The notes under the pieces were generated by a model. The model saw only the letters and a program-made list of their open reading frames with translations. It was not told the origin of the DNA and searched no databases. From positions 3,072,001-3,136,000 of the forward strand of contig CM000155.2 in the NCBI GenBank assembly GCA_000004695.1: a DNA stretch of 64,000 nt, in the 5' to 3' direction. Source of the DNA: Dictyostelium discoideum (lineage: Eukaryota). This document shows positions 11,429-61,831 of this stretch, one piece after another (within the stretch, counting starts at the first letter, position 1; the number at the start of each line of letters is the position of its first letter). A program made the position numbers and the translations under genes.

Positions 11429-11478
<50 letters not shown>

Positions 11479-11788
11479 GGGATTATTATTAGGATTATTA
11501 TTATTATTATTGTTATTATTAGGATGATTATTATTATTATTACTGTTATTATTATTATTATTAATGTTTGGACTTGCTGTTGAAGAAATATTTACACCGT
11601 GAGAGTTTTGGTTAGGGTTATTATTATTATTATTGTTGTTGTTGTTGTTATTATTATTATTACTACTATTATTATTATTATTATTATTATTATTAGGATT
11701 ATTATTATTATTAGGGTTATTATTGTTATTATTATTGTTATTATTGTTGTTATTATTATTAGGATTGTTTGGATTATTGTTATTAGGA

Positions 11789-11838
<50 letters not shown>

Positions 11839-12951
11839 GTTATTATTGTTATTATTAGGATTATTATTTGGATGATTTGGATGATTATTTGGAACTAAAT
11901 GTCCTGCTTGATTCTGAAATTGTTGTACTAATCCATGTGCCATTCCAGTGTAAAATCCAGGAGGAGGTTGACCCATTCCTTGAGGTGGTGGATAAGCACT
12001 CCAATAATATTGTTGTCCATTTGCTACCATATGTTGAGGGATTCCTTGTGGCATTCCCTGTGGTCCTCTGTGAAATTGAATTTGTGCTCCACCTTGCATT
12101 TGTGGATATGGAATCCCGTTTACAACCTTTTGAAATTGACCATGTTGTTGCATTAATTGAGGGTTCATACCTTGTTGGTGCGGATGCATATGGAATTGAT
12201 GTGGATGACCTTGTTGTTGATTTGGATGACCCTGATTTTGACCTTGATTTTGACCTAGATTTTGACCTTGATTTTGACCTTGATTTTGACCTTGATTTTG
12301 ACCTTGGCCTTGACCTTGATTTTGACCTTGACCTTGACCTTGATTTTGATTTTGATTTTGATTTTGGTTTTGATTTTGATTTTGATTTTGATTTTGATTT
12401 TGACCTTGATTTTGGTTTTGGTTTTGGTTTTGGTTTTGGTTTGGGTTTGGGTTTTGGTTTGGGTTTGGGTTTGGGTTTGGGTTTGGGTTTGGGTTTGGGT
12501 TTTGATTTTGGTTTTGATTTTGATTTTGATTTTGGTTTGGATTTTGATTCTGGTTTTGGTTTTGGTTTTGGTGATTATTTACGGGTGGGGTTGGTGGTTG
12601 GATATTTGTAAAATCTTGAGAACCTTTCTTTTTGATTGGGGATGGTGGTTGAACTTTTCCCACTCTCTTCTCCTCTTCATGATGTTTTATATTTACAGTT
12701 GGTGTTGATGGTGATGAGTGAGAAATACCATTTTGTTGACCTTGTGGATTTATTTGTTGATTTTGTTGATTTTGTTGATTTTGTTGTTGCATATGCTGTT
12801 GTTGCAATTGTTGCATATGTTGATTATGAATAAATTGTTGATGCATTAATTGCTGATTCTGTTGGTTCATTTGGTTATGCATTTGTGGTGATTGGGGTGG
12901 ATGTTGATTTTGATTTTGTTGATTGTTAGGATTATTATTACTATTATTAGG

Positions 12952-12982
<31 letters not shown>

Positions 12983-14214
12983 GGATTATTAGGATTATTA
13001 TTATTAGGATTATTATTATTATTACCATTATTATTATTATTAGGATTATTGTTATTGTTATTATTATTACTATTATTGTTGGGATTATTATTATTACTAT
13101 TATTGTTGGGATTATTATTATTACTATTATTGTTGGGATTATTATTATTATTATTATTATTGTTGTTGTTGTTCATTTGTTGTTGGTGATTCATCTGTTG
13201 CTGATGATTCATGTATTGTTGATGATTCATTTGTTGTTGATTGGTCATTTGTTGTAAACTATTAAACTGATTTTGGAATTGATTATAACTATTTTGTTGA
13301 TTTGGATTTTGATTTGGATTTGGATTTTGATTTTGATTTTGATTTTGATTTTGATTTTGATTTGGATTTGGATTTGGATTTGGATTTGGATTTGGATTTG
13401 GATTTGGATTTGGATTTGGATTTTGATTTTGAGGTCCATTTGCATGTGGTGATTGAATGGATTGATTTTGTGGTGATGACATATTTTGACTTGCCATTAA
13501 TTTAGCCATAACAGCTGCTTGTGTTTGGTTGTTCATTTGTTGTTGATTCATTTGCTGTTGATGTGTCATTTGTTGTTGATTCATTTGCTGTTGATGTATC
13601 ATTTGTTGTTGTTGTTGTTGATTATTCATTTGTTGTGGATTATTCATTTGTTGTTGATTATTCATTTGTTGTGGATTGTTCATTTGTTGTTGTTGTTGGA
13701 AAGGGGGATGACCAAATGGATAAGGTTTTGATTGACTTGGACTTGGCATAGGAACATTTTGACCTTGTGGCCCATTCATTTTTTGTTGGTGGTGCTGTTG
13801 TTGTTGTTGCAATTGCATTTGCATTTGCATTTGTAATTGTTGATGTTGTTGTTGATTTTGTGGTTGTGGCTGAATTACCCCATTTGGTAATGATATACTA
13901 TTTCTTGGTGTTGATGGTTTTGAACTTGGACTACCGCTCATTGGGTCTGATCCATTATGTTGTTCGTTATTATTATTATTATTATTGTTGTTATTTGGAT
14001 TATCATTTGATGGTAATACATCTTTTTCATCAGTTTGATTTGATGATTTATCTTTTTTATCTTTTTTACCTTTATTTGATTGATTTGGAGTTGATGGTTG
14101 TTGTGTATTATGAATTTGTTGTTGAGGTGTATTTGGTTGTTGAGGTGTATGAGGTGTTTGAGGTTGGCCTTGCTGTGGAGTATGAGGTGTATGAGGTGTT
14201 TGTGGTTGTTGACC

Positions 14215-14288
<74 letters not shown>

Positions 14289-14615
14289 GCTGCTGTTGAT
14301 GAATTTGTTGCATCATTTGATGTTGAATTTGAAGATGTGGTGGTTTTTGTTGTGGTGAATTGAATTGACTATTTGGTTGTGGTCCGTGTCCTGGTGTTGC
14401 CACCAAAGGTGATGTCATTTGACCATGTGGTCCATGTGCTGGTGTTGATGTTGGATGTTGATTTGGTGTTGTAATTGGTCCTGAGTTTGGTGTTTGTGGT
14501 GCTTGTAAATTATTATTATTTTGATGTTGTTGTTGTTGTGGTAATTTATTTGCTAAAGATAATGGAGATACAGATGAAGTTGGTGAAGTTTGTGTAATTG
14601 GTGAAGCAGTATTAA

Positions 14616-14677
<62 letters not shown>

Positions 14678-14859
14678 GAATTTTGATTATTTTGATTATT
14701 TTGATTATTTTGATTATTTTGATTATTTTGATTATTTAAATTATTTAAAGCATTATTAAAATTTGCTTGTAAATGTTGATGTTGTTGTTGTAATTGTTGT
14801 TGTTGATGTTGTTGTTGTTGTAATTGCTGTTGATATTGTTGATATTGTTGTTGATGTAA

Positions 14860-14892
<33 letters not shown>

Positions 14893-15470
14893 CTGTTGTT
14901 GTTGTTGTTGTTGTTGAACCAATTGTTGTTGTTGTTGTTGTATTTGAAGTTGTAGTTGAGATTGTTGTTGTAGATTAGATTGTTGTTGTTGATGTTGTGC
15001 TTGTTGTGCTTGTTGATAGGTTTGTTGTTGTTGTAGTATCTGTTGTTGTAAATTTATGGTTTGATGTTGTTGTTGTTGTGCTTGTTGTTGCAATTGTACC
15101 GATTGTCGTTGTATTTGTATATCTAATTGTTGCTGTTGTTGTTGGTGTAAATATTTGGTGAAGTTTATATACGCCTTAACTGTCTCATTATTTGACAATG
15201 ACATTCCATTCGCTTTTGCAAAAAATACATCCCAAAACATATTCCACCATTCACATAAAAAACTTTCACCACTACCACCACCACTATTATTATTTATATT
15301 ATCACCACTACTACTGCTACCACTACCACTGCCATCAACACTACCACTACCACTACCACCTGTATCAATCATTTGTACATTTGATGGTATTTTCACTTCT
15401 GCTTTAAATGCATCCACTGTACTCTTATAATTATTCTTTTGTAAATAATCTAAAATATATGCGTTTAAAC

Positions 15471-15519
<49 letters not shown>

Positions 15520-15627
15520 ATTATTATTTTCATTATTTTCATTATTATTAGTATTTTGTAAATTATTTGTAATTAAATTATTATTATAATTATTTATTAT
15601 ATGTTTAACATGAGATGGAGGTTCCAT
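9583..15627 (-). CDS. Giant (2014 aa) LisH/LUFS-domain poly-Q/poly-N protein, single exon. Probable SSDP/Flo8/LEUNIG-like transcriptional co-regulator.
   Basis: N-terminus contains a LisH motif (SLNAYILDYLQKNNYKSTVDAFKAEVKI) followed by CEWWNMFWDVFFAKANGM (LUFS-like). The remainder is Q/N/P/H-rich low complexity, including Q46 and N40+ runs. Continuous minus-strand ORF. Confidence 0.75.
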
Positions 15628-20007: not shown

Positions 20008-21686
20008 CTTAAAAAAAATTTAGTCGTTCACCATATGCATATGATAATAATCCAGAAGAAGAAAAAGCAATGTATGATGCAAATGTTGATAAGAATATGA
20101 CAGTTATTAGAATTGAAGATATGAGTGGTAATCCATTTGCAGCAATTAGCTTTTTTGGTGTTCATTGTACTTCAATGAATAATACAAATCATTTAATCTC
20201 TGGTGATAATAAAGGTTATGCAAGTTATCTTTGGGAAAAACATGCCAATGGACAAAGCTCATTACCAGGTACTGGTCCATTCATTGCAGCATTTGGTCAA
20301 AGTAATGAAGGTGATGTTTCACCAAATACCCGTGGACCAACATGTAGAGATGGTAAACCATGTGATTATAAAACAAGTACATGTAATGGCAAAGTCGAGG
20401 AGTGTTGGGCACTAGGACCAGGTACTGATGGTGACATGTTTGAATCAACTCAAATCATTGGTGGTAATCAATTCAACAAGGCATTGGAATTATTTAACAA
20501 TGCAACCATTCAAGTTAGTGGTAAGATTCAATATAGACACACATGGAAACCATTTACCAATGTTTCAGTTGAAGCACCATATAATAGTGGGGTTGAGGGC
20601 GCAACAACATGTAGAGGTGCAATGGGTTATAGTTTTGCTGGTGGTACAACTGATGGTCCAGGTGCATTCAATTTCATTCAAGGTGATAATAGTACAACTA
20701 ATCCATTTTGGAATTTCATCGGTGGTATCATTGCAAAACCAACACCACAACAAACAGCTTGTCAAGCTCCAAAACCAATTTTAATTGATGTTGGTATGGT
20801 TGAACCAATCCCATGGGTACCAGATGTAATGCCACTTCAAATCATTACTTTAGGTCAAATTGTTTTAGTCGCTGTTCCAGGTGAATTCACAACAATGTCT
20901 GGTAGAAGATTAAGAAATACCGTTAGAGAAATCATTGGTCAATCAATTGAAAATCCAATTGTTTTAATTGCTGGTTTAGCAAATACTTATTCAGGTTATA
21001 TTGCAACATTTGAAGAGTTTCAAGTTCAAAGATATGAAGGTGGTAAGTAATAATTTTTAATTTTTTTTTTTTTTTTTTTTTTTTTTTATATATAAAAAAT
21101 TTAAGTAATAATATTAATAATTTTTATTTATTTTTTAAAAGCATCAACCGTTTTTGGACCTCATACTTTAGGAGCATATCAACAAGAATTTGCAAATCTT
21201 GCACAATCAATTGTAGATGGTAGTCAAGCTGATCCAGGAACATTCCCAAGAAATATGTCTGGTCATACACCATTCTTTTTACCACCAGTCATTGTTGATG
21301 TAGCTCCAAAATTCGACGATTTCGGTGATATCTATACTGATGTCTCTACAACTACACCATATTCAATCAATCAAACTGTTACCGTCATTTTCTATGGTGC
21401 CAATCTTAGAAATAATTTCATGACTGAATCTTCTTTCCTCACTGTTGATCAATTACAATCTAATGGTCAATGGACTACAATTTTAAATGATGGTGATTGG
21501 GATACAAAATTATATTGGAAAATGCATGATTTAGGTTTTTCACTCATCACTGTTGATTGGACAATCTCTCCAATCACTCAACCAGGTACTTATAGAATAA
21601 CTCATAGTGGTTATGCTAAGAAAAATCCATTCTCTGATAATTTAACTTTTTATCAAGGTATTTCAAGTAATTTTAATGTTCAATAA
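19013..21686 (+). CDS. Neutral/alkaline ceramidase with N-terminal signal peptide. Five exons: 19013..19178, 19284..19316, 19466..19847, 20024..21042, 21142..21686.
   Basis: Signal peptide MKRSIVFIYSLVILLLSVGF. GIYDITGPGAE..NMMGYAMPGQ..ITGGIHFRQRARAF...NVLLSGTHTHSGPAGF...RSPYAY...FFGVHCTSMNNTNHLISGDNKGYASYLWE...GPFIAAFGQSNEGDVSPN...GPGTDGDMFESTQIIGG...MGYSFAGGTTDGPG...KPILIDVG...ITLGQIVLVAVPGEFTTMSGRRLR...YQVQRYEGGASTVFGPHTL is colinear with human ASAH2. All four introns have GTAAGT/GTATGT-type donors and consistent phases. Confidence 0.85.
19858..19921. repeat. About T64 homopolymer in ceramidase intron 3.
   Basis: Uninterrupted t-run directly after the GTAAGT donor. Confidence 0.9.
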
Positions 21687-23575: not shown

Positions 23576-28096
<4,521 letters not shown>

Positions 28097-34574: not shown

Positions 34575-37048
34575 ATGGATTTCTATGAACAAAGTTCACA
34601 GTTTTCATTACCACCACCACCAATAATGTCAGAATTACCACCACCACCATCATCATCAACAATGTCGGATCTTCCATTACCAATGCCTGACATTTCTACA
34701 TTACCACCACCAATGTTTGATAATAATAATAGTAGTAGTAGTACAAATTCAGAGGGTATAGACCCATCGTCATTACCACCACCATCAATGGTTGACCTAC
34801 CTCCAATTCCATCAGGTTGGAATGAATGTGATGGAACTGAATTAATACCAGAGATAGATCCATCTGTTAGATTAAATGCAATCATTGTAATTCAATCATC
34901 TTGGAGAGCATTCAGAGAGAGAAGACAATATAAACTATTTTTAAAGGCTGTGGTTATAGTTCAAAAAGTATACAGAGGTTTTTTAGCTAGAAAGCTCTAT
35001 AAAAAATTATATGAAGAATCGCGTTGGTTAAGAGAAACACCACCTCCAACTGGTCCTGCTTTACAAATTGTATGTATATAAATTATTATTATTATTCATA
35101 TTTTATTATTATTATTATTATTATTATTTATTAATACATTTTAATTCTTTAAAATTTAAAAAAGATTAAAAAAGCAAGAGGTGCAGGTGGTAGATCTAGA
35201 CCAACTAGAGGACATAAAGTAGCAACAAAAGAAATTGAAAATTGTACAAATAATAATAATAATGATGAAAATAATAATAATAATACTGATGAAAATGGTG
35301 AAGGTGGTGGTGAGGGTAACGAGTCATCATCAACCGATAAACCAAAATTAGTAATGATGGGTACAGGTATGGTAATTCCAAAATTCGATCCATCTTCAAT
35401 CATGTTAAAAAGAGCACCAAAAGAAGGTAGACATAGTATTGCTTCTTTTGATTCTTTAACAATTAAATCAAAAAGTGCAGAGAATGAGGGTGGTTCATCA
35501 AGTGAACCAAATTCACCATTTGCATTAAGAAAAACTGTAAATAGACCACCTATTCAACAACAACCACCACCACCAGATTCATCACCTGTCTCTTCTTTTT
35601 CACCTTCAAATCTTAGAAAGACAGCTGTAATTAATTCTTCACTACCTCCAATCAATGATCATGATTCACCTTCAAAATTACCACCATTTGTATTAAAGAA
35701 AGCACCATCAACAAATCAATTAAGTTCAAGTGAAGGTTTACCACCTCCACCACCATCATTATCTTCATATGGTGATTTACCACCACCTCCACCACCACCA
35801 TCATTCACATCATTTGGTGATTTCCCACCACCACCACCACCATCAATTTCAGATTTACCACCACCAATTAATTTTAATACAAAACCACCAACACAACCTC
35901 CACCACCAATTCCAAAACAAATGTCACAATCAAATTTACCACCACCACCAATTAATTTTAATACAAAACCACCAACTATTTCAGCTACAGATATTCCATT
36001 ACCTTCAATTGATTTACCACCTATTAGACAACCATCACTTCCATACCATGTATCATCACCAAATCTTCCAACACCACCAAGTTTTAATGCGAAAACAGTG
36101 TCACCAAATTTCCCACCACCAAGATTAACAACTGATAATGTACCACCACCAAGAGTACAAAATGATAATCATAATTTACCACCTCCACCTCAAATTGTAA
36201 ATTTACCACCAATTAATTTTAATAATTCAAATTTACCACCACCACCACCAACATCCTCATCAATGGGAATACCTAATAATTTACCATCACCAATTAATTT
36301 ACCATCACCAATTAATTTACCATCACCAATTAATTTACCACCACCAATTACAGCAAATCAACCACAACCAAATCTATATAATAAACCACCACCAAAATTA
36401 CCATCTCAATCAAATTTATCATTACCAAATAATTTACCACCACCAATTACAGCAACAAAGATATTGAAACCAGGTTGGGAAGTATTTACAACACAAGAAG
36501 GTAAAAAATATTTTTCTAATAGATCTCAAAATTTAACTACTTGGAATGAAAATGATGCATATGATACAACTGTTTCAACACAATCATCATCTCTACCACC
36601 ACCTCCTTCACCATCATCAAATGATTGGGAAGAACTAATGACAAAAGATGGTAAAAAGTATTATTACAATAGAGCAACCAATGTTACAAAATGGGATAAA
36701 CCAATTTCAAATCCAACTTCAGAGATTAGTAATTCACAATCTCATATACCAAATCAATCATTAAATCAATCACCAGTTCAACAATCACAACAACAACAAA
36801 AAACCCAACCATCACCATCATCATCAAAAAAGAAAGAACACCACAAAGAGGTTATTTCACAAAATCCTGAAGAAAAGAAAAGAATTGGTGGTATACTTTC
36901 ATTATTTTTGAAAAAACGTCCAAATAAAACTGATTTAGTCTCAAAAAATATTTTGGTTGATGATGGTACTACTGCTTCAACTTCATCTTCATCCTCATCT
37001 TCTTCTTCTTCAAGTAAATCAAGTAAATCAAAGTCGAAAAAGAAATAA
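34575..37048 (+). CDS. IQ-motif and double-WW-domain proline-rich protein. Two exons: 34575..35069, 35165..37048.
   Basis: IQ-like motifs IIVIQSSWRAFRERRQYKLFLKAVVIVQKVYRGFLARKLYKKL. Many PPPP(P) tracts (LPPPPPPPSFTSFGDFPPPPPPS...). Two WW domains (GWEVFTTQEGKKYFSNRSQNLTTWNENDAY and DWEELMTKDGKKYYYNRATNVTKWDKP). Basic Ser-rich C-terminus. The intron (GTATGT...AG) keeps the frame. Confidence 0.7.
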
Positions 37049-39919: not shown

Positions 39920-41240
39920 TTAATCTTTTCTTAATTTGTGATAGTGAAGTCTTATTGACATTTTATAATGTGGAGGTATTAAAATTAAAATAACCAAAAC
40001 AAAAATAATTACAAAAAAAACATAACCAATTACAATACCAGCTATTTGAGATTTTGATAAAGATGATGAAGATGATGATGTGCATATTGAATTATCAGAA
40101 TTTGAAGAAGCTGGATTTGAATTTAATAATACAGAAAAGTCTGGATCAATTTCAATTTTTGATTTATATAAAGGTATTTGAATAGCGACAAATGATAATT
40201 TTTTACTTGAGGTTGTATTATTTAATTTTTCATTCTGATTGAAATCTGTTAAAACTTTATTACTAATTGTTTGTACTATTCCATTATCGATAATTGCTCT
40301 TTTTAAAAATCTCAAAAGAAAACAAAATTCACCAACTTGGAGTCCAAAATAATTAAAATTATCATTAAAACCAAATTGTTCACTTGAACAAATGTCATCA
40401 GTTTTTGAAGTTTCAATAAAACTTTTAAATATTAATTCAAATGTATTTAAAGAAGTTGAGAATGGATAATGACCAATTGTTTTTGTGTATTTTAAACATG
40501 ATGGATTTATAGTAAAGTTTTCACCTGCAAATGTTATTTGAGTTTCTTTTTCAAACCATTCGGCTACTACTGTTATTGTTGATACTTGATTAGCACCTTT
40601 TTTAATTTTTGTATTATAAATTACATTGTACTTGAAATGGGTGTGGAGATCCAATCATTATCATTAAAATAATGAATATTTTCAATTGAATTATTGAAAT
40701 TAATTTCACGTATTGCAACAATAGAAACCATTGTATAATTATCATTGCGTTTGAGCTATAAACTATACTATTTTCTACCTGTATATTATAATTATCAATT
40801 ATTGAAACAGTTGATTGAGACCCAAAATGTTTACCTATTATTGTTATGAATGAAACTCCACTTGAAATTAGTGAGATGGTATCAATTGAATTTGATTTCT
40901 TTAATAGAGGTTCATTATTATTTAAGAATTACTTTCACCACTACTGTATGAGTTTGATATTAAATTTTCAATATATGGTAAAGTAATAGTTTGATTGGTT
41001 GAAATATAACTTTTGAAACAGCTATATCCAAATCATAAGCTGAATAACCATTGAAATTGAATGAAGTATCGACAATTCCAAAAACTGATACTATAAAACC
41101 TTTACTTGAACTGAATCCATATGGAATAGAACAGAGTGCTTCATATTGTGCAAAAATGGTTAAATTCGTAGATGGGCCAAATCCCTTTCCTTTTAATTCA
41201 GTATTACATTCAATATTTGTTTTTTTTGATCTTAAAAAAA
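39920..41240 (-). pseudogene. Truncated, decayed copy of the C-terminal half of the neighbouring giant IPT/EGF/TM gene family (see 41521..46191). Pseudogene.
   Basis: 39920..40654 encodes the family's last roughly 240 aa including the TM and tail (NVIYNTKIKKGANQVSTITVVAEWFEKETQITFAG...IPPHYKMSIRLHYHKLRKD). 40655..41240 still aligns at nucleotide level with 42230..42310 and 42650..43150 of the intact gene, but has an internal deletion of the EGF/Ser-Thr linker and frame disruptions. No N-terminal exons. Confidence 0.65.
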
Positions 41241-41520
41241 AAAAAATATAAAAATAGATAATTTATCTTATTTTTTTTATTTTTTTTTATTTTTTTTTTT
41301 TTATTTATTTATTTTTTTAATTTTTTCAACTAACTCTTTTTTTCATAATTTTGAATTAAGGTAAGAATACAATGAAGATACTGAAGAATATAAACACTTG
41401 AAATATATTTATGTTTATTACTTTTTAATTTTTAACAAAATGGATAATTTACAAAAAAAGTAATGGACATTGTTTAAAAAAAAAAAAAAAATTTTAATAA
41501 TTTTAATTTCATTTATTTAT

Positions 41521-46191
<4,671 letters not shown>

Positions 46192-46268
46192 TGTCTTTTA
46201 AAAAAATTTCTTTTCTTTTCTTTAATTTTTTACTTTTTTTTTCTTTTTTTCTTTTTTTTTTTTTTTTT

Positions 46269-46299
<31 letters not shown>

Positions 46300-46774
46300 T
46301 CTTTACTTTTATTTTCTTTTTTTTTTTCAATTTTATTTTCGTCTTTTTTTTTTTTTTTTCATAAAAAATATAAAAATTAAAAAAAATTAAAAATAGATAT
46401 TTTCTCTTGATTTTTTTTAAAATCATCTCTCTCACAGCCCAAAAAATTAATTTCTTAAAAAATGAAAAAAAAAAGTTAAAAGTAATTTTGTGCTGGTTTT
46501 ATTTTTTATTTTTTATGCGGTCATTTCTACCAGAAGCTCAAGATATTTTCATCCAGATAACCCATTTGTTTATGTTTTGATTGGTTCAAAAAATTATCAA
46601 GAAGCTAAAAATTTGTGTTTGGAAATATCAAAAAATAAAAAAAGTTAAATATCTTTGAAAAAAAAAAATAATAAAAGATTAAAAATTATTATTTATTTTT
46701 ATAAAAAGAGGGAAAAGATATTATCTATTTTTTATTTATATTTTTATTTGTTTTTTTATTTTTTTATTTTTTTT

Positions 46775-46796
46775 ATTTATTTATTTATTTGTTTGT

Positions 46797-46843
<47 letters not shown>

Positions 46844-46845
46844 TT
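46775..46845. repeat. (TTTA)n microsatellite between giant paralogs A and B. A similar (TTTA)n lies at 31601..31648.
   Basis: tttatttatttattt... runs visible. Confidence 0.9.
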
Positions 46846-46865
46846 ATAATAAATAAATTCTTTTT

Positions 46866-49800
46866 TTAATTTTTTCTGCTAACTCTTTTTTTCATTTTAA
46901 AAAGGAAAATTCTAAAAGATAATTTTGAATTTGAAGGTAATAAGATTAAAATAATTAAAATTAAAATTATAAAGAAAACTATAGAACCAATTACAATACC
47001 AGCTATTTGAGGTTTTGATAAAGATGATGAAGACGACGATGTGCATATAGAATTATCAGAATTTGAAGAAGCTGGATTTGAATTTAATAATACAGAAAAG
47101 TCTGGATCTAACTCTATATTAATATTATAGAAAGGTATTTGAATAGCGACAAACGATAATTTTTTACTTGAGGTTGTACTATTTAATTTTTCATTCTGAT
47201 TGAAATCTGTTAAAACTTTATTACTAATTGTACGTACTACATTATCAATATTTGCTCTTTTTAAATATTTTGAAAGAAAACTAAATTCACCAACTTGAAG
47301 TTCTAAATAATTTGAATGATCATTTAAACCAAATTGTTCACTTGAACAAATGTCATCAGTTTTTGAAGTTTCAATAAAATTTTTAAATATTAATTCCAAT
47401 GTATTTAAAGATGTTGAGAATGGATAATGATCAATTGATATTGAATATTTTAAACTTGATGGATTTATAGTAAATTTATCACCTGCAAACGTAATTTGAG
47501 TTTCTTTTTCAAACCATTCAGCTATCACTGTTATATTTGATACTTGATTAGCACCTTTTTTAATTTTAGAACTATATGAAAATTTTGTACTTGAAATATT
47601 TTTAAAATCCCAAATATCAAAATAATGAATATTTTCAATTGAATTATTAAAATTAATTTCACGTATTGCAACTATTGAAATTATAGTATTAAGTTTAATA
47701 TCACCATTATTGCCAACAATTGGAATTTCATTTTTAATATCTGGTGATGTTAAATTTGTTATAGGTTGAGGTATTTTAACAATCTCTGATAAACAATCAA
47801 ATCCACTATATGGTGAGATACATTGACATCCAATATTTTCAATACATTTACCTCTATTCAATCCACCACAACTATTTAAACATACTACTTTTGGTGTTGG
47901 TGTTATTAGTGTTGGTATTGATGGTGTTGAAGTAGGTGTTGTGGTTGAAGTTGGTGTTGAGGTTGGTGTTGAAGTTGGTGTTGAATCAGATGAAGAAGTT
48001 GAAGAATCAGGTAAAACAGTGATTTCAACAATATTGGATAGAGTTTGAGTAATTTCATCTTTTATATAAACATATAATTTTTCAGAATTAAATGATTCAA
48101 CTTTATTTATTAAAATAACATTTGAACTGAAAATTAAATTATTTTGAACAAGAGAATTTGAACTATCATTAATAAAAATTTTAGGATCAGAACCAAAACT
48201 ATTACCACTTATTGTTATTAAACCACCACTACTTGAGATTGATGTAAAACTTTCAATAAATGGTGTTTTGGTTTGTATAATTGGTGATATAATACTAGTG
48301 AAACCTAAATTTTCTAAATCAAATGATGAAAAACCACCAAGATTAAAAGAAGTATCAACAATTCCAAATACTGATGCCACAATCATATTACCATTACTAT
48401 CACCACCACCAAATCCATATGGTACTAAACAAGTTGCTGTATAATTTGCTGAAAATATCAAAAGGGAAGTATCCCATTGGAAACCATTTAATTTAGTTTC
48501 ACATTCTATACTTGTTAATTCTAAATCTAATAAATCATTTATGTAATATTCTAAAAATACAACTGGTTTATGAGTGTCATATAATAAACCAAAACTATCG
48601 GTAACTTGAAATTCAAACGATAAATCCCTATTATGTGAATATGAATCAATATTTAGAGTTGATGGTTTAAAAATTGAAAGAGTTGGTTGAGTTGCATCTG
48701 GTGTAAAATCTGGAGTATTAACTTTAAAAGTTAAAAAACTCATACTAGTTGAATCTATACTATATATTGGTGATAATAAATTTACACCTGATTCTTTATT
48801 AAAATTAAAATTATCTTCAATTATTTGAGATTTGTGACCTGAATTATCAATTAAAATTATATTTTCAAATGTAAAAGTTTGTCCTTGAATGGTTGGTTTC
48901 ACAAGGAATTTAATATTATATTGACCTATAAATTTATCACCACTTATTAAATCAAGTTCAGGTGTAAAATAAAATTCTAAAGGAATTGGATCCTTATCAC
49001 CAATAATTCTAAAATATGCAGATTTCAAACCATTAATTCTATCTTCAATTGTAACTGTCCAACCTACCATTAAATCTTTGGTTCCATTACATGTAAATTC
49101 ATTACCATTGACAGGTTCAATCGATTGGAAATAAGATATATTTTTAATAATTGGTGGCATTTCATCACAATCTGTTGAGGTTACACTTAAATTTGCAGCA
49201 TTACCAAATAATGAATAAAAGTAATCCATTGTATAACTAACGCTATCTACTTTAATAATATATGGCAAACTACCAGAACATTTACGAGGTGGAATTACAA
49301 ATTGAATTTTAAAAACATTTTCATTTTTGTCTTTTAAATATTGACCGACTTCAAGATCCATTGGATTAATTAATGAATCTCCATAAATTGGATCTAATAA
49401 ATAAAATGAGATTGGTATATCGTATGCTGAATCAATATAATCGAAATATAAAGTTTGTAAAAATCCATAATCAACATTTACATTTTGTGCTTCAAATTCA
49501 AATTTACTAACTGATAAAACTTGACTTCCACCATTAATACTATTATTAAAAGCATTTATATATGGGATTTCTTTTAAAGGATTTAATGAATAATATGTAT
49601 CATATATTTTGAATTGACCACCTGTAGTCATAATTAAAATTGGTGTTTTTTCAAAAGTAACAATGATAACTTTTTCATAATAACCATCACCTATTGTTCC
49701 ATTGACTAAATCCTTTTGAGTTATAATGTTACCACAATATTTCAACCATGATAAAACACCAGCACCTGCTTTTGAAATGATCCTAACTTGAAGAACTGCT

Positions 49801-51504
49801 CTTTTACCATCACCACCTCTTGGATAATAAATATTCATACTTTCAATAGATGGCAATTCATAAGTTTGTGGTGTGTCAAAAACTTCAAGAGATGTAACAA
49901 CTTTATTTAAATTTGAACTAAAGCTATAATATAATGAACCAATCACTTGAGTCTTTAATACACTCATTTGGTATTGAAATATTTGCATTGTACCTGAAAC
50001 AACACCATAAGGGTATTTAAATTGTCTTAGATTAATACCAACATTTTGTGTACTCTCAAAACCAGTTGAAAATAACATTGATCTTGATATATTACCGTTT
50101 ATTTCCATATTTATAAAATTTGTACTTGTATTTGTTGTACCATCAATAAAAGAAAAAGGTATCGCTATTTTAAATAATTGTAAAATATAAATAATTGTTA
50201 ATACTTTGATATTAAAAAAAAAAAAAAAAACAAAAAAAAAACTTACCATAGTAATCGATTGAAGCAGTTTCAAACGAAATATTATCATAAACTAAAGAAT
50301 GTACTTGATAACTTAATTTTGGTCTAATAAAATCTGACGGTAAAGAAGATGATAATAAAAACTGAGCCCTTGTTTCATTCCCACCTACCATTTTAAACCA
50401 TTGATTATTAAAATCTATAGGTTGATCAATCATTCCATATACAGCTTTTGAATATAAAAATAAATTCGATATTGATTTATCAATTGTATCACATGATGTA
50501 ATTAAACTTGTATCCCAATATGTACTTGATATATAACTACCACCTGCTCTATAATTATTACTTTGAGAACATACATCATTATCATAATCTTTTTTTTTTT
50601 TTTTTTTTATTAGTTTTTTTTTTTTTTTTCATATAAATTTAAAAAATATATTTATTACCTACCTATTAAAGGATTAAATAAATTGAATTCAATATTACTT
50701 AAAGAACCATATGAAATATTAAATAATAAATATGTTGGACTTACTCGAGGTGAGTTTGAAGGATTGAAATCTAATGAAAATCTTGCTAAATAGGTTGTTG
50801 AACTATCAATTAAAAATCCGTCTAAAAACGAGTATGTATATGGAAAAGGTGAATTTGTTGGTTTTAAACTTAACTGTTTTGTAACATTATAAATTTTTAA
50901 ATAAAAATAAATAGTTGATGATGGTGGAGTTGTTGTAATTAAATTTTCTAATACTTGAAAATTTAATGGTGATGTTGGTGGTTCTACACAATTATAGACG
51001 AATAAAGGAATTGCATAATTATTTGATCCATCATATATTGAGGAGAGGCTATATTGGCCGACTGTACAATTTGCATAAATTTCAAAACGACCAAATGTAT
51101 CTATTGATTGTATGAGTTCTGTTTTAAAATAATCAGTTGATAAACCTGAAATTAAAACTGTTGAAATTTGACTACCAAATGATCCAATAAATGTAAATCT
51201 TGGGTAACAATAACCACCTTTTTTATTTTAGTTTTTTTTTTTTTTTTATTTTGGGAAATAATATTAGTAAAAGAAATATAAATAAACGTTGCTATGTTTA
51301 ATTTTGACTTTTTCCCACATAAAAATTTTCAGATAAAAATCTGAATTTCGGCATCGTTTATTTTTTTTTTTTATTTTTAGTTTTCATACTTTCAGCATAA
51401 AAATCACTATTTTTTTTTAATTGAAAGAAATCAACAGAAGACAGTGTAATTACTAATTCTATAAATAATAAATTTAAAAAAATAAATAAAGTCAAAAATT
51501 TCAT
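46866..51504 (-). CDS. Giant secreted/type-I membrane glycoprotein, paralog B. The CDS length is identical at 4311 nt. Four exons on the minus strand: 51504..51390, 51217..50663, 50588..50247, 50164..46866.
   Basis: MKFLTLFIFLNLLFIELVITLSSVD... signal peptide. Exon/intron architecture and phases are identical to paralog A. IPT-like FTSISSSGGLITISGNSFG; EGF-like VVCLNSCGGLNRGKCIENIGCQCISPYSGFDCLS; a TPTS-repeat linker; TM segment IAGIVIGSIVFFIILILIILILL. Roughly 50% identity to A overall, but with roughly 95% identical internal blocks. Confidence 0.6.
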
Positions 51505-52038
51505 CTTTTGGTTTTTGATTGGACATAAAAAAAAAAAAAAAAAAAAAAGTAAAAAAAAAAAAAAAAGTAAATCAAAAAAAAAAAATTGTGCAAAAGATAT
51601 TTTTATTTTTTTTTTTTTTTTTTCAAAGAATTAACAATTTTTTTAATGGATGTTTTTTTAATTTGTAATGATATAGATATTATCAATTGAAGAATTAACA
51701 ATTTTTTCCTTAAGCCAATTTATGGCAAATATAAAATAGGAATGAATAAACTTTTTAAATTTAATAGGTCTTAAAAAAATAAAAAAAAATAAAAAAATAA
51801 AAAAAGTGAATAAAAAAAAAGTGGATTAAAATCATTTTAAAAAATTAAAAATAAAAATATTTAATTTAAAAATAATATATTTAAAAAGGTGTTTAAATTT
51901 TTTTTATTAGATTTTAAAACTTTAAATAAAAAAAAATAAAAAAACTTGAACATATTTTTATTATATAAAATTAGAAAAAGAGAGAATACTATTTTCTATT
52001 ATCTTTTTTTATTTTTATTTTTATTTTTTTCATTAATT

Positions 52039-54293
52039 TTAAAGGAGAGCTTCAAAATTGAAATTTGCATTATCACTAGTATTACAAATTGATTTGAATG
52101 ATACGACTAAATTACCACCATCGAATTTCCAAACCCAATAAGAACTTTGTTTTTCAACAAATTGGAAGACGATTTTACAATTTTGAGTTGCTTCAACGAA
52201 ACCTTCTTTGACCATATCATCATCTTTACATCTTTTAACGATATTTTGACTGATGTAACGAATGATTTCAGCAAAGACATCACCAACACGTGGTTTATTA
52301 TTTTCTTCTAATTTTGGATAAACTTGTTCGATTGAAGATTCATCATAAGTCCAATCATTACCCAAGACTTCTTTAATCTTTTCGAAAGATTCATTGATTT
52401 TCTCTTGATTCTCTCTCAAATTGATTCTAGAGGCTAAAGTGAGTACACCTGGTGATGGTAAAATTTTAATGAAATCAAAGTTTGCATTATCACTAACATT
52501 GCAAATTGATTTGAAGGTGATTACTAAATCATTGTTTTCAAAACTCCAATTCCAATAACCGTTTGCTTTGGCATTGTGACGGAAAACAATCTTTGCATTT
52601 GAAGTTGCTTCGAGGAAACTTTCTAAAACCATATCCTCTTTACAACGTTTAACGATATTATCAGCGACATATTTAATAATCTCTTGGAATAAGTCACCAA
52701 TTCTTTCTTTATTTCTTTCTTCAAGTGCTGGATAAACAGTTTCCAATGATTGCTCATCATAGGACCAATCTACTTTAGTGACCTCTTTAATTCTTTCAAA
52801 AGCGGTATCGAATTTCTCTTGGTTCTCTTTCAAATTGATTTTAGCAGCTAATGAGAAAACACCTGGTACTGGAAGGACTTTAATGAAATCGAAATTGGCA
52901 TTATCAGAGATATTACAAATTGATTTAAAGGTGATGATTAAATTACCACCTTCAAAGGTCCAATTCCAATAACCACTTGCTTTGGCATTATGACGGAAAA
53001 CAATCTTTGCATTTGAAGTTGCTTCAACGAATGCTTCTAAAATTGTATCATTTTTACATTTCTTTTCAATGTTATCAGCAACATATTTGAAAATATCAGA
53101 GAATAAATCACCAATTCTCTCTTTATTTCTTTCTTCAAGTGCTGGATAAATTTGCTCCAATGATTCTTGCTCATATGACCAATCCATGTGGGTGGCTGCT
53201 TTAATTCTTTCGAAAGCGGTATCGAATTTCTCTTGGTTCTCTTTCATATTCAAACGAGCAGCTAATGAGAAAACACCTGGAACTGGGAGAACTTTAATGA
53301 AATCGTAGTTGGCATTATCAGAGATATTACTAATGGATTTGAAAGTAATGATGAGATCACCATTAGCGAATGACCAATTCCAATAGCCTGTGGTTTGTTT
53401 TGGATTATGTCTGAAACTAATTCTACCATTGGCAGTTACATCATTGAAACTTTCTAAAGTCATTTCATCTTTACAACGTTTTTCAATGTTTTGAGCAACG
53501 TATTCTAAAATTTGAGCAAATGTAGTACCAAATTGTTCACGTTGACTTTCATGTTCAAAAGCAGTTGGATAAACAGTTTCCATTGATGCTTCATCAAATG
53601 ACCAATCTCTACTGGTAACTACTTTAATTCTTTCGAATGCAAGTTCAAATCTTTCTTGATTCTTTTTCATATTAAGACGAGTTGGTAAACTATAAGCACC
53701 TTCACTTGGAATCACTTTATATAATTCGAAATTACCAGCTTCAGTAATATTATTACAACCTTTCTTGAATAAAAGATTTAATTGACCACCATTAAATGCA
53801 TACTTCCAATAGGATGAATTCTTGGCATCTTCATTAACAATTAATACAATCTTTTTAGCAGTATTTGCATTAATGATTGATTCTTTAGTTAATTCATCTT
53901 TTGATGCATTTACAATACATTTACTAATATTTGGACATAAATTTTTATAAAATACTTCACCCTTTTTTTAAAAAAAAAAAGAATTGATTAGATAAAAAAT
54001 GAAAATTAAAAAGAAAAAAAAAAAAATTACTTACTAATTGTTTTTTAACATGTTCATCAACTTTATCGAAAATGGCATCCCAATCAAATTCAATAATCCA
54101 TTCTTCACCATTTAAAGCATTTTTGATTTCTTCATGTGCTTTATTTAAGTGTTCTTCATTATCTCTTAATGATTTTCTGAAAAATAAAAAATAAAAAAAT
54201 GAAAAGAGTAAATAATTTGAACTTGATATTTTTTTATTTTTTTTTATTACTGTCTTTTTTTTTTATTTACCTAGCAACAAGGTTTAAAGGCAT
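52039..54293 (-). CDS. Protein of about 692 aa composed of five tandem roughly 140-aa internal repeats. Uncharacterised; no signal peptide seen. Three exons on the minus strand: 54293..54271, 54176..54035, 53952..52039.
   Basis: The repeat unit is roughly ...LNMKENQEKFDTAFERIK..T..DWSYDE.SLE.VYPALEERNKERIGDLF..I.KYVADNI.K.CK.D..LE.F.EATSNAKIVFRHNAKA.GYWNW.FE.GNL.ITFKSICN.SDNANFDFIKVLP.PGV, repeated 5 times. The first copy is diverged (EEWIIEFDWDAIFDKVDEHVKKQL...SSYWKYAFNGGQLNLLFKKGCNNITEAGNFELYKVIP). Exon 1 is MPLNLVAR|GTAAAT. The exon-3 acceptor (gggtgaAG) is weaker than usual. Confidence 0.55.
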
Positions 54294-54895: not shown

Positions 54896-55618
54896 TTATT
54901 TTAAAACTAAATCATTTGAAATGTTTGTAAATTTCGAAGTAATATCCCAAAGTTTTTTAGAAATTTCAATACTATTGAATTGTCTTGGAGTTTCAGTTAA
55001 TACACCAATGTTAAAGTAAGAACCTTTAATACCATTAAGTGATGGATCAGTACCAAGTGCAACTTTTGCACATTCTTTAGAAGCAACTTGAATTGGAGTG
55101 AAAATAAAATTTGGCATCAATGAAAAAGCAACTTTTAAAATACCAGTAAAATCACGTTGTAAACTAGTTTGAACTTTACCAGGATTAATTGAATTTACTA
55201 CTATTTTAGAACCTTTTTCAATTAATTTTCTTTGTAATTCCTTTGTGAATAATAGATTACAACATTTCGAAAGTGAATAATCTTTTAATTGATTATAGTT
55301 TGCCTCTGATTCAACATTTATTTTATCATTTAAAATCAATGATAAATCGGCATCTTTAAATCTATCAGATGTTAAAACTAAAATTCTTGGATTTTCACTT
55401 TTTTCCAAATTTTTTAATAATAAATTTGTTAATAAAAATGGACCAAAATGATTAGTAGCAATTTGAAATGAATAACCATCTTGAGTTATTGAAAATGGTG
55501 GACACATAACACCTGCATTATTAATTAATAAATCTAATGGTAAATTTAATTTATTAAATTCATTTACAAATGATTTTACTGACTATTTTTTTTTTTTTTT
55601 AAAAAAAATAATTTATTA

Positions 55619-56845: not shown

Positions 56846-57901
56846 TTATTCTTTTGAATTTAATATTGTTAAAATTTCATCGTCAGATAATGGTTGTAAA
56901 TTACGTTCATTTCTATTGAGTATAATTTCATTTTTCCAATAGTTATGATGATCATATTCATGATCTGAGGCACCAGTGAATTCTTTTTCTAAATCATTTG
57001 GCTCAAAGAATTGGGAGAAAACTTTAATTTTTTGTTTTTCACCATTTGCGAAAACGATCTTTTTATAGGTAACTTTATTGATGAATGGTGAGATGGTAGT
57101 CCAGAAAACATTGAAAATGAAGGGAGTTTCCACTAAAAAGGCATTACCGAGACGCTCTGGATAATGGTCGGATAAAATTTGAAGAACATACTTACTAACA
57201 GACATTGGTGGTGAATTTCTAATTGAATAGTTTTTAAAGTCGATTAACAATACAATTTGTTCGTGGCCACGTGTTTTATCCATTAATGATATTGCTCTTT
57301 CAATGTTGTAAACCATTAATCTGATTTGGTTATCATGGTTTTTAGTATTCTCTCTCACTGGTCTAAGATAGATAACACTTCTGCCATGTGATTTACCAAA
57401 TACGTATTGTTTACCTGAGGATGCTTCATAGGATAATGATTCGGCTGTAATCTCGTATGGCTTATATTTGCTTCTCCATTCCAATGTATTCTTTAGTAGA
57501 TTGAATGATAAAGAGAGATCATAATCTCTTGCTCTTAAATATCTTAATAATAACATATCACCACCATCCTCTAACCATTCTCTCTCCTTTTCTGATATCT
57601 CTCCAAATCCTGTGTTTGTTGATTTTTCATTACCATCTTTCCATACTTTTTCTTTAAATTGTTTGAAAATATTAATTTGTTTTTCACTTAAATTTTTAAA
57701 TGGGTTAAATTCACCACCATCTTCAAATTTTGTATTATTATATATTTCATTATCTTCACCTGTTACTGATGATGCACTATTTGTATTACTATCTGTTAAA
57801 TCTGAAGTTGAAATATCTTGTTCACTTTTTGTTGTAGTTGTTGTGGTTGTGGTTGTTGCAGTGGTTTCTTCATTTTTATTTTTTTTATCTTTTTTTCCCA
57901 T
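56846..57901 (-). CDS. CRAL-TRIO (Sec14-like) lipid-transfer protein, single exon, 351 aa.
   Basis: LLLRYLRARDYDLSLSFNLLKNTLEWRSKY...KQYVFGKSHGRSVIYLRP...QIVLLIDFKNYSI...SVSKYVLQILSDHYPERLGNAFLVETPFIFNVFWTTISPFI is the typical CRAL-TRIO N-terminal plus lipid-binding domain signature. N-terminal poly-Thr. Confidence 0.75.
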   Translation of the reverse strand: MGKKDKKNKNEETTATTTTTTTTTKSEQDISTSDLTDSNTNSASSVTGEDNEIYNNTKFEDGGEFNPFKNLSEKQINIFKQFKEKVWKDGNEKSTNTGFGEISEKEREWLEDGGDMLLLRYLRARDYDLSLSFNLLKNTLEWRSKYKPYEITAESLSYEASSGKQYVFGKSHGRSVIYLRPVRENTKNHDNQIRLMVYNIERAISLMDKTRGHEQIVLLIDFKNYSIRNSPPMSVSKYVLQILSDHYPERLGNAFLVETPFIFNVFWTTISPFINKVTYKKIVFANGEKQKIKVFSQFFEPNDLEKEFTGASDHEYDHHNYWKNEIILNRNERNLQPLSDDEILTILNSKE

Positions 57902-60338: not shown

Positions 60339-60411
60339 GGGGATGTAGCTCAGATGGTAGAGCGCTCGCTTAGCATGCGAGAGGTAAAGGGATCGATACC
60401 CTTCTTCTCCA
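60339..60411 (+). tRNA. tRNA-Ala, anticodon AGC.
   Basis: GGGGATGTAGCTCAGATGGTAGAGCGCTCGCTTAGCATGCGAGAGGTAAAGGGATCGATACCCTTCTTCTCCA. Cloverleaf with anticodon loop cTTAGCAt. Acceptor stem includes the G3:U70 alanine identity pair. T-loop TCGATAC. Confidence 0.9.
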
Positions 60412-60866
60412 CTTTATAATTTATTGTGTAAAGTGATACTTTACGAAGTTCGGGTTTGGAAATCGAAAATAAAAATTAAAAAAATAATAAAAATAAAATA
60501 AAAACATTTTTCGTTTTTCGAAAAATTCAGTTTTTCACTTTGAATACAAATAACAATATTAGTATTATTTATTAATTTGAATTTCTAAACATCTATTTAA
60601 TTTATACATATTTATCTATAAATTTAACAATTGTATGGAATCTTAATATTATTAATTGTCACGACTTTCAGTTTTATATTTATTAGTATTACCATTACAA
60701 GTTTTTAATAGTCATAATATTAATAAGAATACTATAATAATACTTCTTATTTTAACTCATTATTTAATAATACTATTAACAATTATTTATTTAACAGATT
60801 TTCAAGATTTGTTTGAAAATTCCTAAATTGGAATTTTCAAAATAAAAATTTAGATATTAATTTTAA

Positions 60867-61758: not shown

Positions 61759-61831
61759 GCTCGATTAGCTCAGTCGGCAGAGCGTGGTGCTAATAACGCC
61801 ACGGTCGCAGGTTCGATCCCTGCATCGAGCA
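61759..61831 (+). tRNA. tRNA-Ile, anticodon AAT.
   Basis: GCTCGATTAGCTCAGTCGGCAGAGCGTGGTGCTAATAACGCCACGGTCGCAGGTTCGATCCCTGCATCGAGCA. Acceptor stem GCTCGAT/ATCGAGC. Anticodon stem TGGTG/CGCCA with loop CTAATAA. T-arm GCAGGTTCGATCCCTGC. Confidence 0.9.

What the first reader, a model, noticed from the sequence alone, without database searches (positions are those of the whole stretch)
39920..51504. Tandem cluster of giant IPT/EGF/TM surface-glycoprotein paralogs: two intact 4311-nt genes plus a decaying third copy
Two head-to-tail minus-strand genes (41521..46191 and 46866..51504) have exactly the same CDS length of 4311 nt. They have the same four-exon structure, with all three introns at homologous positions and phase 1. 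Both encode a signal peptide, IPT/TIG-like and EGF-like modules, an S/T linker, a TM segment and a short basic tail. Overall they are only about 50% identical. A third, N-terminally truncated and internally deleted copy (39920..41240) lies immediately downstream. This is the signature of an actively duplicating, diversifying cell-surface receptor family. Such loci in social amoebae, the polymorphic Tgr-type IPT/TIG receptors, mediate kin/allorecognition. The family assignment is my inference from the P-x-x-G-x-x-I-T-I-x-G-x-x-F-G motif and the domain order, not a database hit.
Basis: partly seen in the sequence, partly recalled or inferred. Interest (0 to 1): 0.75.

Follow-up and report, generated by a model that had tools for sequence, protein, structure and literature searches.

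The report
Tandem amoeba surface-glycoprotein paralogs, not Tgr
This is a real tandem cluster in Dictyostelium discoideum: two intact giant surface-glycoprotein genes plus a dead third copy. They belong to a large, uncharacterised, fast-evolving family found only in social amoebae, not to the Tgr kin-recognition family, so the locus is fairly ordinary for this genome.

Summary
The window is D. discoideum AX4 chromosome 6. Gene A (DDB_G0293720) and gene B each have four exons, three phase-1 GT-AG introns and a 4311-nt CDS. They are about 60% identical, not about 50%. The third copy (41253-39920) is a 5'-truncated, frameshifted pseudogene with an internal deletion.

Both proteins have a signal peptide, about nine Ig-like/E-set beta-sandwich domains (Pfam DUF7743, DUF7035, DUF7034), one IPT-like domain, an EGF module (DUF7949), a ComC supersandwich domain, a TM segment and a short basic tail. 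The family has 782 cluster representatives in the search library, and every member I looked up that carries an organism name is dictyostelid. No sampled member has a significant Pfam TIG hit, and the genes lie head-to-tail, so Tgr membership and allorecognition are not supported.

Copy number at the syntenic site varies from 1 to 4 among close relatives. dN/dS is 0.37-0.51, against 0.04-0.19 for flanking genes, and is near 1 in the N-terminal 445 codons. Synonymous divergence matches the flanks. Two tracts are homogenised by gene conversion.

Most likely these are adhesion or recognition receptors with a variable distal tip, evolving by birth-and-death. Interest is modest.

The parts
46866..51504 (-). 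Gene B: intact 4-exon gene. Exons 51504-51390, 51217-50663, 50588-50247, 50164-46866. CDS 4311 nt, 1436 aa. No protein record was found for AX4.
   Evidence: model, GT-AG, phase 1. (best hit 93% identical, orthologue P0005). (exact look-ups fail). (DUF7035, DUF7034, DUF7949, ComC_SSD).
41521..46191 (-). Gene A = DDB_G0293720. Exons 46191-46080, 46000-45440, 45274-44957, 44840-41521. CDS 4311 nt, 1436 aa. The annotated protein (1415 aa) starts at M22 and lacks the signal peptide.
   Evidence: The upstream start is conserved in orthologue models.
39920..41253 (-). Third copy, an A-like pseudogene. It is 5'-truncated (starts at A residue about 884-892), has at least 4 frameshifts and lacks A residues 1060-1166. 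Its 3' remnant is annotated in AX4 as the 258-aa DDB_G0293600.
44957..46191 (-). Exons 1-3 of A (plus the first about 115 codons of exon 4) encode the N-terminal about 445 residues. This region has no Pfam hit, is predicted as about four beta-sandwich domains, and is the fastest-evolving part (dN/dS 0.8-1.3 against close strains).
44191..44523 (-). DUF7743 domain of A.
   Evidence: E 1e-9.
43366..43824 (-). DUF7035 domain of A.
   Evidence: E 1.8e-26.
42916..43320 (-). DUF7034 domain of A.
   Evidence: E 3e-22.
42610..42813 (-). It is sub-threshold by sequence and supported by fold.
   Evidence: TIG 14 bits against a 20.9 cutoff..
42418..42513 (-). EGF-like module (DUF7949) of A.
   Evidence: reelin and ADAM22 EGF matches.
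41725..42375 (-). ComC supersandwich domain of A, the membrane-proximal part of the cassette shared with ComC-type proteins.
   Evidence: E 1e-16..
41581..41661 (-). Transmembrane segment of A, followed by an 18-aa basic tail.
43778..44173 (-). Gene-conversion tract in A, 396 nt and about 96% identical to B 49518-49123. Exon 4 overall is 72% identical.
49123..49518 (-). Partner gene-conversion tract in B.
41897..42161 (-). Second homogenised tract, in the ComC_SSD region of A. Its partner is B 47521-47257, at 92-93% identity.

Best explanation
The locus is a tandem, head-to-tail array on D. discoideum AX4 chromosome 6. It holds two intact paralogues (B, then A = DDB_G0293720) and one dead A-like copy. 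They belong to a large family of type I membrane glycoproteins whose looked-up members are all dictyostelid.

Shown:
- Each protein has a signal peptide and a long all-beta ectodomain of about nine Ig-like/E-set sandwich domains.
- An EGF module and a ComC-type supersandwich domain sit next to the membrane, followed by one TM helix and a short basic tail with no catalytic domain.
- The array evolves by birth-and-death. The B/A duplication predates the discoideum-dimigraforme split. Later A duplicates are intact in one strain, truncated in another and pseudogenised in AX4. D. citrinum has lost A.
- The membrane-distal N-terminal about 445 residues change at nearly the neutral rate.
- A central domain and the membrane-proximal cassette are kept alike between paralogues by recurrent gene conversion.

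Inferred: the proteins are rod-like adhesion or recognition receptors. The variable tip binds a ligand on another cell, on the matrix or on prey. The conserved stalk and cassette present the tip and couple it to partner proteins. This follows the analogy with ComC, which shares the cassette and is needed for normal aggregation.
For: - Identity: (100% match to DDB_G0293720, contig 3,602,379 bp).
- Family size and spread: 782 representatives at E<=1e-3 and 294 at E<=1e-30, mostly 1300-1430 aa. The named members looked up come from Polysphondylium, Tieghemostelium and several Dictyostelium species.
- Birth-and-death.
- Rates: dN/dS is 0.44-0.51 for A and 0.37-0.43 for B, against 0.04-0.11 for flanking genes at the same dS. 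The N-terminus gives 0.76-1.29.
- Gene conversion: pS falls from 0.4-0.6 to 0.10-0.13 in the tract. In the tract, paralogues cluster within a lineage, whereas in the flanking controls they cluster by orthologue type.
- ComC link: ComC_SSD E 1e-16. There is 26-28% identity over EGF+SSD to a ComC-type gene carrying LRR_ComC. comC mutants show aberrant aggregation (PMC2873529, Table 1).
Against: - There are no expression, localisation or mutant data for either gene, and I found no literature on them.
- The high dN/dS never significantly exceeds 1, so relaxed constraint explains it as well as diversifying selection does.
- Gene B has no protein record for AX4. It may be treated as a pseudogene, or missed, by annotators.
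- The link to ComC covers only the C-terminal cassette.
- The N-terminal domains of the AF2 model have modest confidence (pLDDT 45-70 over residues 200-410).
Confidence: 0.62

Rival explanations
1. One reading: a Tgr-type polymorphic allorecognition locus, whose paired products bind each other between cells and discriminate kin.
For: - Type I TM proteins with an IPT/E-set-like fold.
- Tandem paralogues, copy-number variation and gene conversion.
- N-terminal dN/dS near 1. These features resemble the birth-and-death dynamics described for tgr genes (bioRxiv 10.1101/2025.10.22.684067).
Against: - No significant Pfam TIG hit in A, in B or in any of 35 family members. The sequence family is different, with a ComC_SSD cassette.
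- The genes are head-to-tail, not a head-to-head pair.
- dS equals that of the flanks and orthologues follow the species tree, so there are no deep allelic lineages.
- Unlinked paralogues evolve about as fast, so the locus is not special.
- The AX2-like and AX4 sequences of gene A are identical.
Confidence: 0.05
2. Redundant family members drifting under relaxed constraint. The elevated dN/dS, copy loss and pseudogenisation reflect decay of surplus paralogues rather than any ligand-driven diversification.
For: - dN/dS is never significantly above 1. The N-terminus is indistinguishable from neutral in close comparisons.
- One copy is dead in AX4, one is truncated in another strain, and A is lost in D. 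citrinum.
- B is missing from protein records.
Against: - A and B keep intact 1413-1437-aa reading frames in all five other genomes that carry them, out to dS about 0.4.
- The stalk and cassette are under clear purifying selection (w 0.12-0.5, Fisher p down to 1e-15).
- At larger distances the N-terminus is also significantly below 1 (0.60-0.69).
Confidence: 0.2
3. Receptors for non-self targets such as bacterial prey, pathogens or substrate, rather than for other amoebae. The fast N-terminal evolution would reflect an arms race or diet shifts.
For: - The family is very large and is found across the dictyostelid genera sampled, as expected for environmental sensors.
Against: - Fold matches to Ig-like arrays are generic.
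- The only characterised protein sharing a domain, ComC, acts in developmental cell-cell communication.
- There are no expression data to say whether the genes are vegetative or developmental.
Confidence: 0.13

Closest known systems
Dictyostelid 'EGF-like domain-containing protein' family defined by Pfam DUF7743 / DUF7035 / DUF7034 / DUF7949 / ComC_SSD (for example DDB_G0293720, DDB_G0274923/5, Q55EH0)
   Same: The full domain order, the length (about 1300-1440 aa), the signal peptide, the TM segment and the short tail. A is itself a catalogued member. Unlinked members diverge at a similar rate between strains.
   Different: Nothing essential. What is added here is the tandem array with copy-number variation, the conversion tracts, a probably mis-set start for A, a pseudogene fragment annotated as a gene, and an apparently unrecorded intact gene B.
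ComC (Dictyostelium communication mutant C; an EGF-domain, signal-plus-TM protein; mutants show aberrant aggregation)
   Same: The membrane-proximal EGF + ComC supersandwich cassette, a TM segment and a type I topology (PMC4931340 Table 3; PMC2873529 Table 1).
   Different: ComC-type proteins have an N-terminal LRR_ComC region. A and B instead have about nine Ig-like domains including DUF7743, DUF7035 and DUF7034. Identity is only 26-28%, and only over the cassette.
Tgr (tiger) family: TgrB1/TgrC1 allorecognition proteins
   Same: General design: a signal peptide, Ig-like/IPT/E-set extracellular repeats and one TM segment. They also share birth-and-death evolution with pseudogenes, gene conversion and copy-number variation (bioRxiv 10.1101/2025.10.22.684067; PMC12745789).
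   Different: No significant Pfam TIG domains. An extra EGF + ComC_SSD cassette. About 1436 aa. Head-to-tail arrangement. No excess synonymous divergence. I found no record naming them tgr genes.
Metazoan plexin / Met / integrin-leg type ectodomains
   Same: Rod of tandem IPT/Ig-like sandwiches followed by EGF-like modules near the membrane.
   Different: No sema, PSI, kinase or GAP domains. Sequence identity is 6-19%. The resemblance is at the level of fold class only.

Membership tests
DUF7035/DUF7034-EGF-ComC_SSD family of dictyostelid surface proteins | Significant Pfam hits to DUF7035, DUF7034, DUF7949 and ComC_SSD, in that order. | tested here: met
   A: E 1.8e-26, 3e-22, 1.3e-9, 1e-16. 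B: E 1.7e-27, 1.9e-20, 6.6e-9, 4.1e-12. 35/35, 35/35, 35/35 and 33/35 of sampled members also hit.
DUF7035/DUF7034-EGF-ComC_SSD family of dictyostelid surface proteins | Length of about 1300-1440 aa, an N-terminal signal peptide, a single C-terminal TM segment and a short tail. | tested here: met
Tgr (tiger) family | Repeated IPT/TIG or Ig E-set domains detectable by sequence (InterPro IPR002909 / Pfam PF01833). | tested here: not met
   A has one sub-threshold hit (14.0 bits against a 20.9 cutoff, E 0.052). B has none at E<=1. 0 of 35 family members hit at E<=0.01. The family profile finds no IPT-containing PDB chains.
Tgr (tiger) family | Transmembrane protein with an Ig-like/E-set fold in the ectodomain. 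| tested here: met
Tgr (tiger) family | Placement inside the Tgr clade by direct sequence comparison with TgrB1/TgrC1 and the other named members. | not testable with these tools
Sources name A only 'hypothetical / EGF-like domain-containing'.
TgrB1/TgrC1-type allorecognition pair | Head-to-head gene pair sharing one promoter. | tested here: not met
   A and B are both on the minus strand, head-to-tail, with a 674-bp spacer. The feature is as described in bioRxiv 10.1101/2025.10.22.684067.
TgrB1/TgrC1-type allorecognition pair | Extreme polymorphism, or deep allelic lineages exceeding the background divergence. | tested here: inconclusive
   No true within-population sample was available. Against divergent isolates, dS is 0.09-0.105 for A and 0.067-0.072 for B, compared with 0.056-0.085 for the flanks. 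Orthologue divergence tracks species distance. Gene A is identical in the AX2-like assembly and AX4.
ComC-type proteins | N-terminal LRR_ComC region. | tested here: not met
   No LRR_ComC hit in A or B. It is present in the D. dimigraforme neighbour gene.
ComC-type proteins | EGF + ComC supersandwich domain + TM cassette. | tested here: met
   tblastn to the ComC-type gene gives E 2e-10 and 1e-12.

The most novel reading that the evidence does not exclude
A/B, together with the extra A-like copies in some strains, form a second recognition system independent of Tgr. The near-neutrally evolving N-terminal Ig-like tip would be under diversifying selection and mediate strain-, species- or mating-level cell recognition. 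Recurrent gene conversion would keep the stalks interchangeable and shuffle variants among copies.
Probability: 0.07. Interest if true: 0.7.

Novelty: new member of a known kind. Interest (0 to 1): 0.3.

Why it matters
If the array does act in recognition, it would add a non-Tgr family to the small set of social-amoeba surface proteins tied to cell-cell interaction. It would also offer a compact model: two intact genes, a variable tip, and a stalk kept alike by gene conversion.

As things stand, its practical value is mainly for annotation:
- The start codon of DDB_G0293720 probably omits the signal peptide.
- DDB_G0293600 looks like a pseudogene fragment rather than a gene.
- An apparently intact 1436-aa gene (B) has no protein record.

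The work also describes a family of several hundred members that currently carries only DUF labels. That family is a reasonable target for the new multi-strain Dictyostelium genomes.

Tried and rejected
- Exact look-ups of my A and B proteins, and of two exon-4 ORF variants of B, found nothing. The encoding-contig look-up for P0001 also failed.
- The word-indexed homology search returned only 3-7 hits per query. In the full-length searches only the 8000 candidates sharing most words were scored, probably because low-complexity words dominated, and the third search missed even the query's own record. The exhaustive representative search was needed to see the family.
- P0001 was too long for that tool, so I used the exon-4 ORF.
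- The first AF2 run, on the N-terminal 424 aa with 6 sequences, failed (pLDDT 38).
- The afdb50 fold library was unavailable, so no structural comparison with AlphaFold models of Tgr or ComC was possible.
- A PDB sequence search with the family profile found only EGF modules.
- Literature searches for the gene IDs, the DUF names and comC+lagC found nothing. Supplements of the two tgr papers do not mention these genes.
- I rejected the idea that the equal 4311-nt length reflects constraint. Orthologue lengths vary and the A/B alignment has many indels.
- I rejected the reading that 90-93% identity to 'D. discoideum' orthologues means hyper-polymorphism. Flanking genes show the same dS, and those isolates are divergent tropical lineages (PMC12745789).
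- tRNA and tandem-repeat scans showed nothing relevant to the cluster.


Full report
**Source and observation.** The window is about 20% G+C. Gene A's product is 100% identical to D. discoideum AX4 DDB_G0293720 (XP_629039, UniRef Q54BJ0), on a 3,602,379-bp contig, which is chromosome 6.

I rebuilt both gene models by hand and checked them by script.
- A: exons 46191-46080, 46000-45440, 45274-44957, 44840-41521.
- B: exons 51504-51390, 51217-50663, 50588-50247, 50164-46866.
- Both are exactly 4311 nt. All six introns are GT..AG and phase 1, at homologous positions.

Identity between A and B is 56% (BLASTP) to 60-61% (global alignment), rather than about 50%, and it is mosaic. The equal length is a coincidence, because orthologues range from 1413 to 1437 aa.

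**The third copy.** It is a true pseudogene and is A-like, at 88.6% DNA identity. It starts at A residue about 884-892 and passes through at least four frameshifts. It lacks A residues 1060-1166 and keeps only a 244-aa terminal ORF.

**What the proteins are.** Pfam gives DUF7743, DUF7035, DUF7034, DUF7949 (an EGF-like module) and the ComC supersandwich domain, all above threshold (one exception: B's DUF7743 hit, 26.7 bits, falls just under the 27-bit cut-off). TIG reaches only 14 bits in A (cutoff 20.9) and is absent in B. Each protein has a hydrophobic N-terminal leader, one TM segment, 19-22 N-glycosylation sequons, 19 cysteines and an 18-23 aa basic tail.

An exhaustive HMMER search finds 782 cluster representatives (294 at E<=1e-30), mostly 1300-1430 aa long. 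The named members I looked up come from Polysphondylium, Tieghemostelium and several Dictyostelium species, and all are labelled only 'EGF-like domain-containing' or hypothetical. Of 35 sampled members, 35 carry DUF7035, DUF7034 and DUF7949, 33 carry ComC_SSD, and none has a TIG hit at E<=0.01.

By sequence, however, the proteins belong to a distinct family.

**Relation to ComC and Tgr.** A and B share only the EGF+supersandwich cassette with ComC-type proteins. They are 26-28% identical over that cassette to a neighbouring LRR_ComC gene in D. dimigraforme. ComC is a signal-plus-TM EGF protein, and its mutant aggregates aberrantly (PMC4931340 Table 3; PMC2873529 Table 1).

Tgr proteins are defined by TM plus IPT/Ig E-set repeats, and tgrB1/tgrC1 form a head-to-head pair with a shared promoter and extreme polymorphism (bioRxiv 10.1101/2025.10.22.684067; PMC12745789). 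A and B fail the sequence-level TIG criterion, are head-to-tail, and are not labelled tgr in any record I saw. I could not obtain Tgr sequences for a direct comparison.

**Evolution of the locus.** The syntenic interval lies between a 554-694-aa gene and a roughly 700-aa gene. Its content differs among genomes:

| Genome | Content of the interval |
|---|---|
| AX4 | B, A, pseudogene |
| Tropical D. discoideum isolate (L001) | B, A, truncated 782-aa A-like copy |
| Tropical D. discoideum isolate (L002) | B, A, two further A-like copies fused into one 2830-aa model |
| D. cf. discoideum (L003) | B, A |
| D. dimigraforme (L005) | B-like, A-like |
| D. citrinum (L004) | B-like only, next to an integrase fragment |

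The B/A duplication is therefore old, and later A duplicates are born and die.

These assemblies come from the study of divergent isolates in PMC12745789. Typical within-species divergence is about 0.3% (bioRxiv paper), whereas here flanking genes show dS 0.056-0.085. The 90-93% protein identity is therefore not hyper-polymorphism.

**Substitution rates.** Against the two tropical isolates:

| Gene | dN/dS | dS |
|---|---|---|
| A | 0.44-0.51 | 0.090-0.105 |
| B | 0.37-0.43 | 0.067-0.072 |
| Three flanking genes | 0.04-0.11 | 0.056-0.085 |

- The N-terminal 445 codons give 0.76-1.29 in close comparisons, not different from 1. Against D. citrinum and D. dimigraforme they give 0.60-0.69, significantly below 1.
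- The stalk and cassette give 0.12-0.5.
- Two unlinked family members are 94% identical between the same kinds of strains, so this pace is a family trait.

**Gene conversion.** Between A and B, pS is 0.4-0.6 in most regions. It drops to 0.10-0.13 over A residues about 530-680 and to 0.15-0.23 near the C-terminus. The core tract is A 44173-43778 against B 49518-49123, 396 nt at about 96% identity, compared with 72% for exon 4 overall.

In this tract the D. dimigraforme A and B copies are 95% identical to each other, but only 86-88% identical to any discoideum-clade copy. All discoideum-clade A and B copies are 92-98% alike. In the flanking control segments, sequences instead cluster by orthologue type, with A against B at 66-70%. 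The C-terminal tract behaves the same way, at 99% within D. dimigraforme. This is concerted evolution by recurrent conversion.

**Interpretation.** The best-supported reading is a birth-and-death array of rod-like type I surface glycoproteins. They have a fast-changing distal tip and a conserved stalk and cassette homogenised by conversion. The adhesion or recognition role is an inference from architecture and from the ComC analogy, not from any data on these genes.

The alternatives are:
- relaxed constraint on redundant copies;
- receptors for prey or substrate;

**Annotation points.**
- The annotated DDB_G0293720 starts at M22. The upstream ATG at 46191 adds MKHYIFLIFFFILIPKSLGGT, which is conserved in orthologue models.
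- DDB_G0293600 (258 aa) is a two-exon model that bridges a frameshift in the pseudogene.
- Gene B, although intact here and in five other genomes, has no protein record.

**Verdict.** The feature is real and accurately observed, but its family assignment was wrong. It consists of uncharacterised members of a catalogued dictyostelid surface-protein family. Interest is modest, about 0.3.

Noticed in passing
window 46129-46191 (minus strand): The annotated AX4 protein DDB_G0293720 (1415 aa) begins at the second Met. The in-frame upstream ATG at 46191 adds a 21-aa hydrophobic leader (MKHYIFLIFFFILIPKSLGGT) that is conserved in orthologue gene models, so the reference start probably omits the signal peptide.
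   Followed up: partly
window 39920-40731 (minus strand): AX4 protein DDB_G0293600 (258 aa, 'ComC supersandwich domain-containing protein') is a two-exon model laid over the 3' remnant of the dead third copy. Its 'intron' skips a frameshift and it has no signal peptide, so it is probably a pseudogene fragment annotated as a gene. In the AX2-like assembly the same remnant is fused to gene A as a 1780-aa model.
   Followed up: yes
window 46866-51504 (minus strand): Gene B is intact (1436 aa) and has intact orthologues in five other genomes. No AX4 or AX2 protein record matches it, and the best hit is 93% identical, from another isolate. It may be unannotated or flagged as a pseudogene in the reference.
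   Followed up: partly
window 45322-45420: A perfect 99-nt homopolymer (A on the coding strand) lies inside intron 2 of gene A. Long A/T runs also fill the A-B spacer (46207-46359) and the region upstream of B (51527-51585).
   Followed up: no
window 60339-60412 and 61759-61831 (+): Two tRNA genes, tRNA-Ala(AGC) and tRNA-Ile(AAT), lie about 1.4 kb apart.
   Followed up: no
window 9583-15627 (minus strand): A 2014-aa ORF with an N-terminal LisH motif lies in a stretch with very strong strand composition skew (GC skew up to +0.63, AT skew down to -0.46). This suggests long biased-composition coding repeats.
   Followed up: no
L004 14917-16061 (D. citrinum): A retroelement integrase fragment (Integrase_p58_C, SH3_Tf2-1) lies just downstream of the single B-like gene, where discoideum-clade genomes carry gene A. 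This hints that loss of A was linked to a transposon insertion.
   Followed up: no
L005 801-4923 (D. dimigraforme): A ComC-type gene (LRR_ComC, EGF_TEN, ComC_SSD; 1143 aa) lies just upstream of the syntenic adh_short gene in D. dimigraforme. It is absent from the corresponding position in the AX4 window.
   Followed up: partly
window 23576-28096 (-), 20070-21050 (+), 35354-37048 (+), 52039-53715 (-), 54896-55507 (-), 56846-57901 (-): The neighbouring genes are unrelated. They include an NF-X1 zinc-finger protein, a neutral ceramidase fragment, a WW-domain protein, a 558-aa protein with no clear family, a short-chain dehydrogenase and a CRAL/TRIO protein. The array is therefore an isolated insertion among unrelated genes that evolve far more slowly where tested, not part of a larger surface-protein island.
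   Followed up: partly
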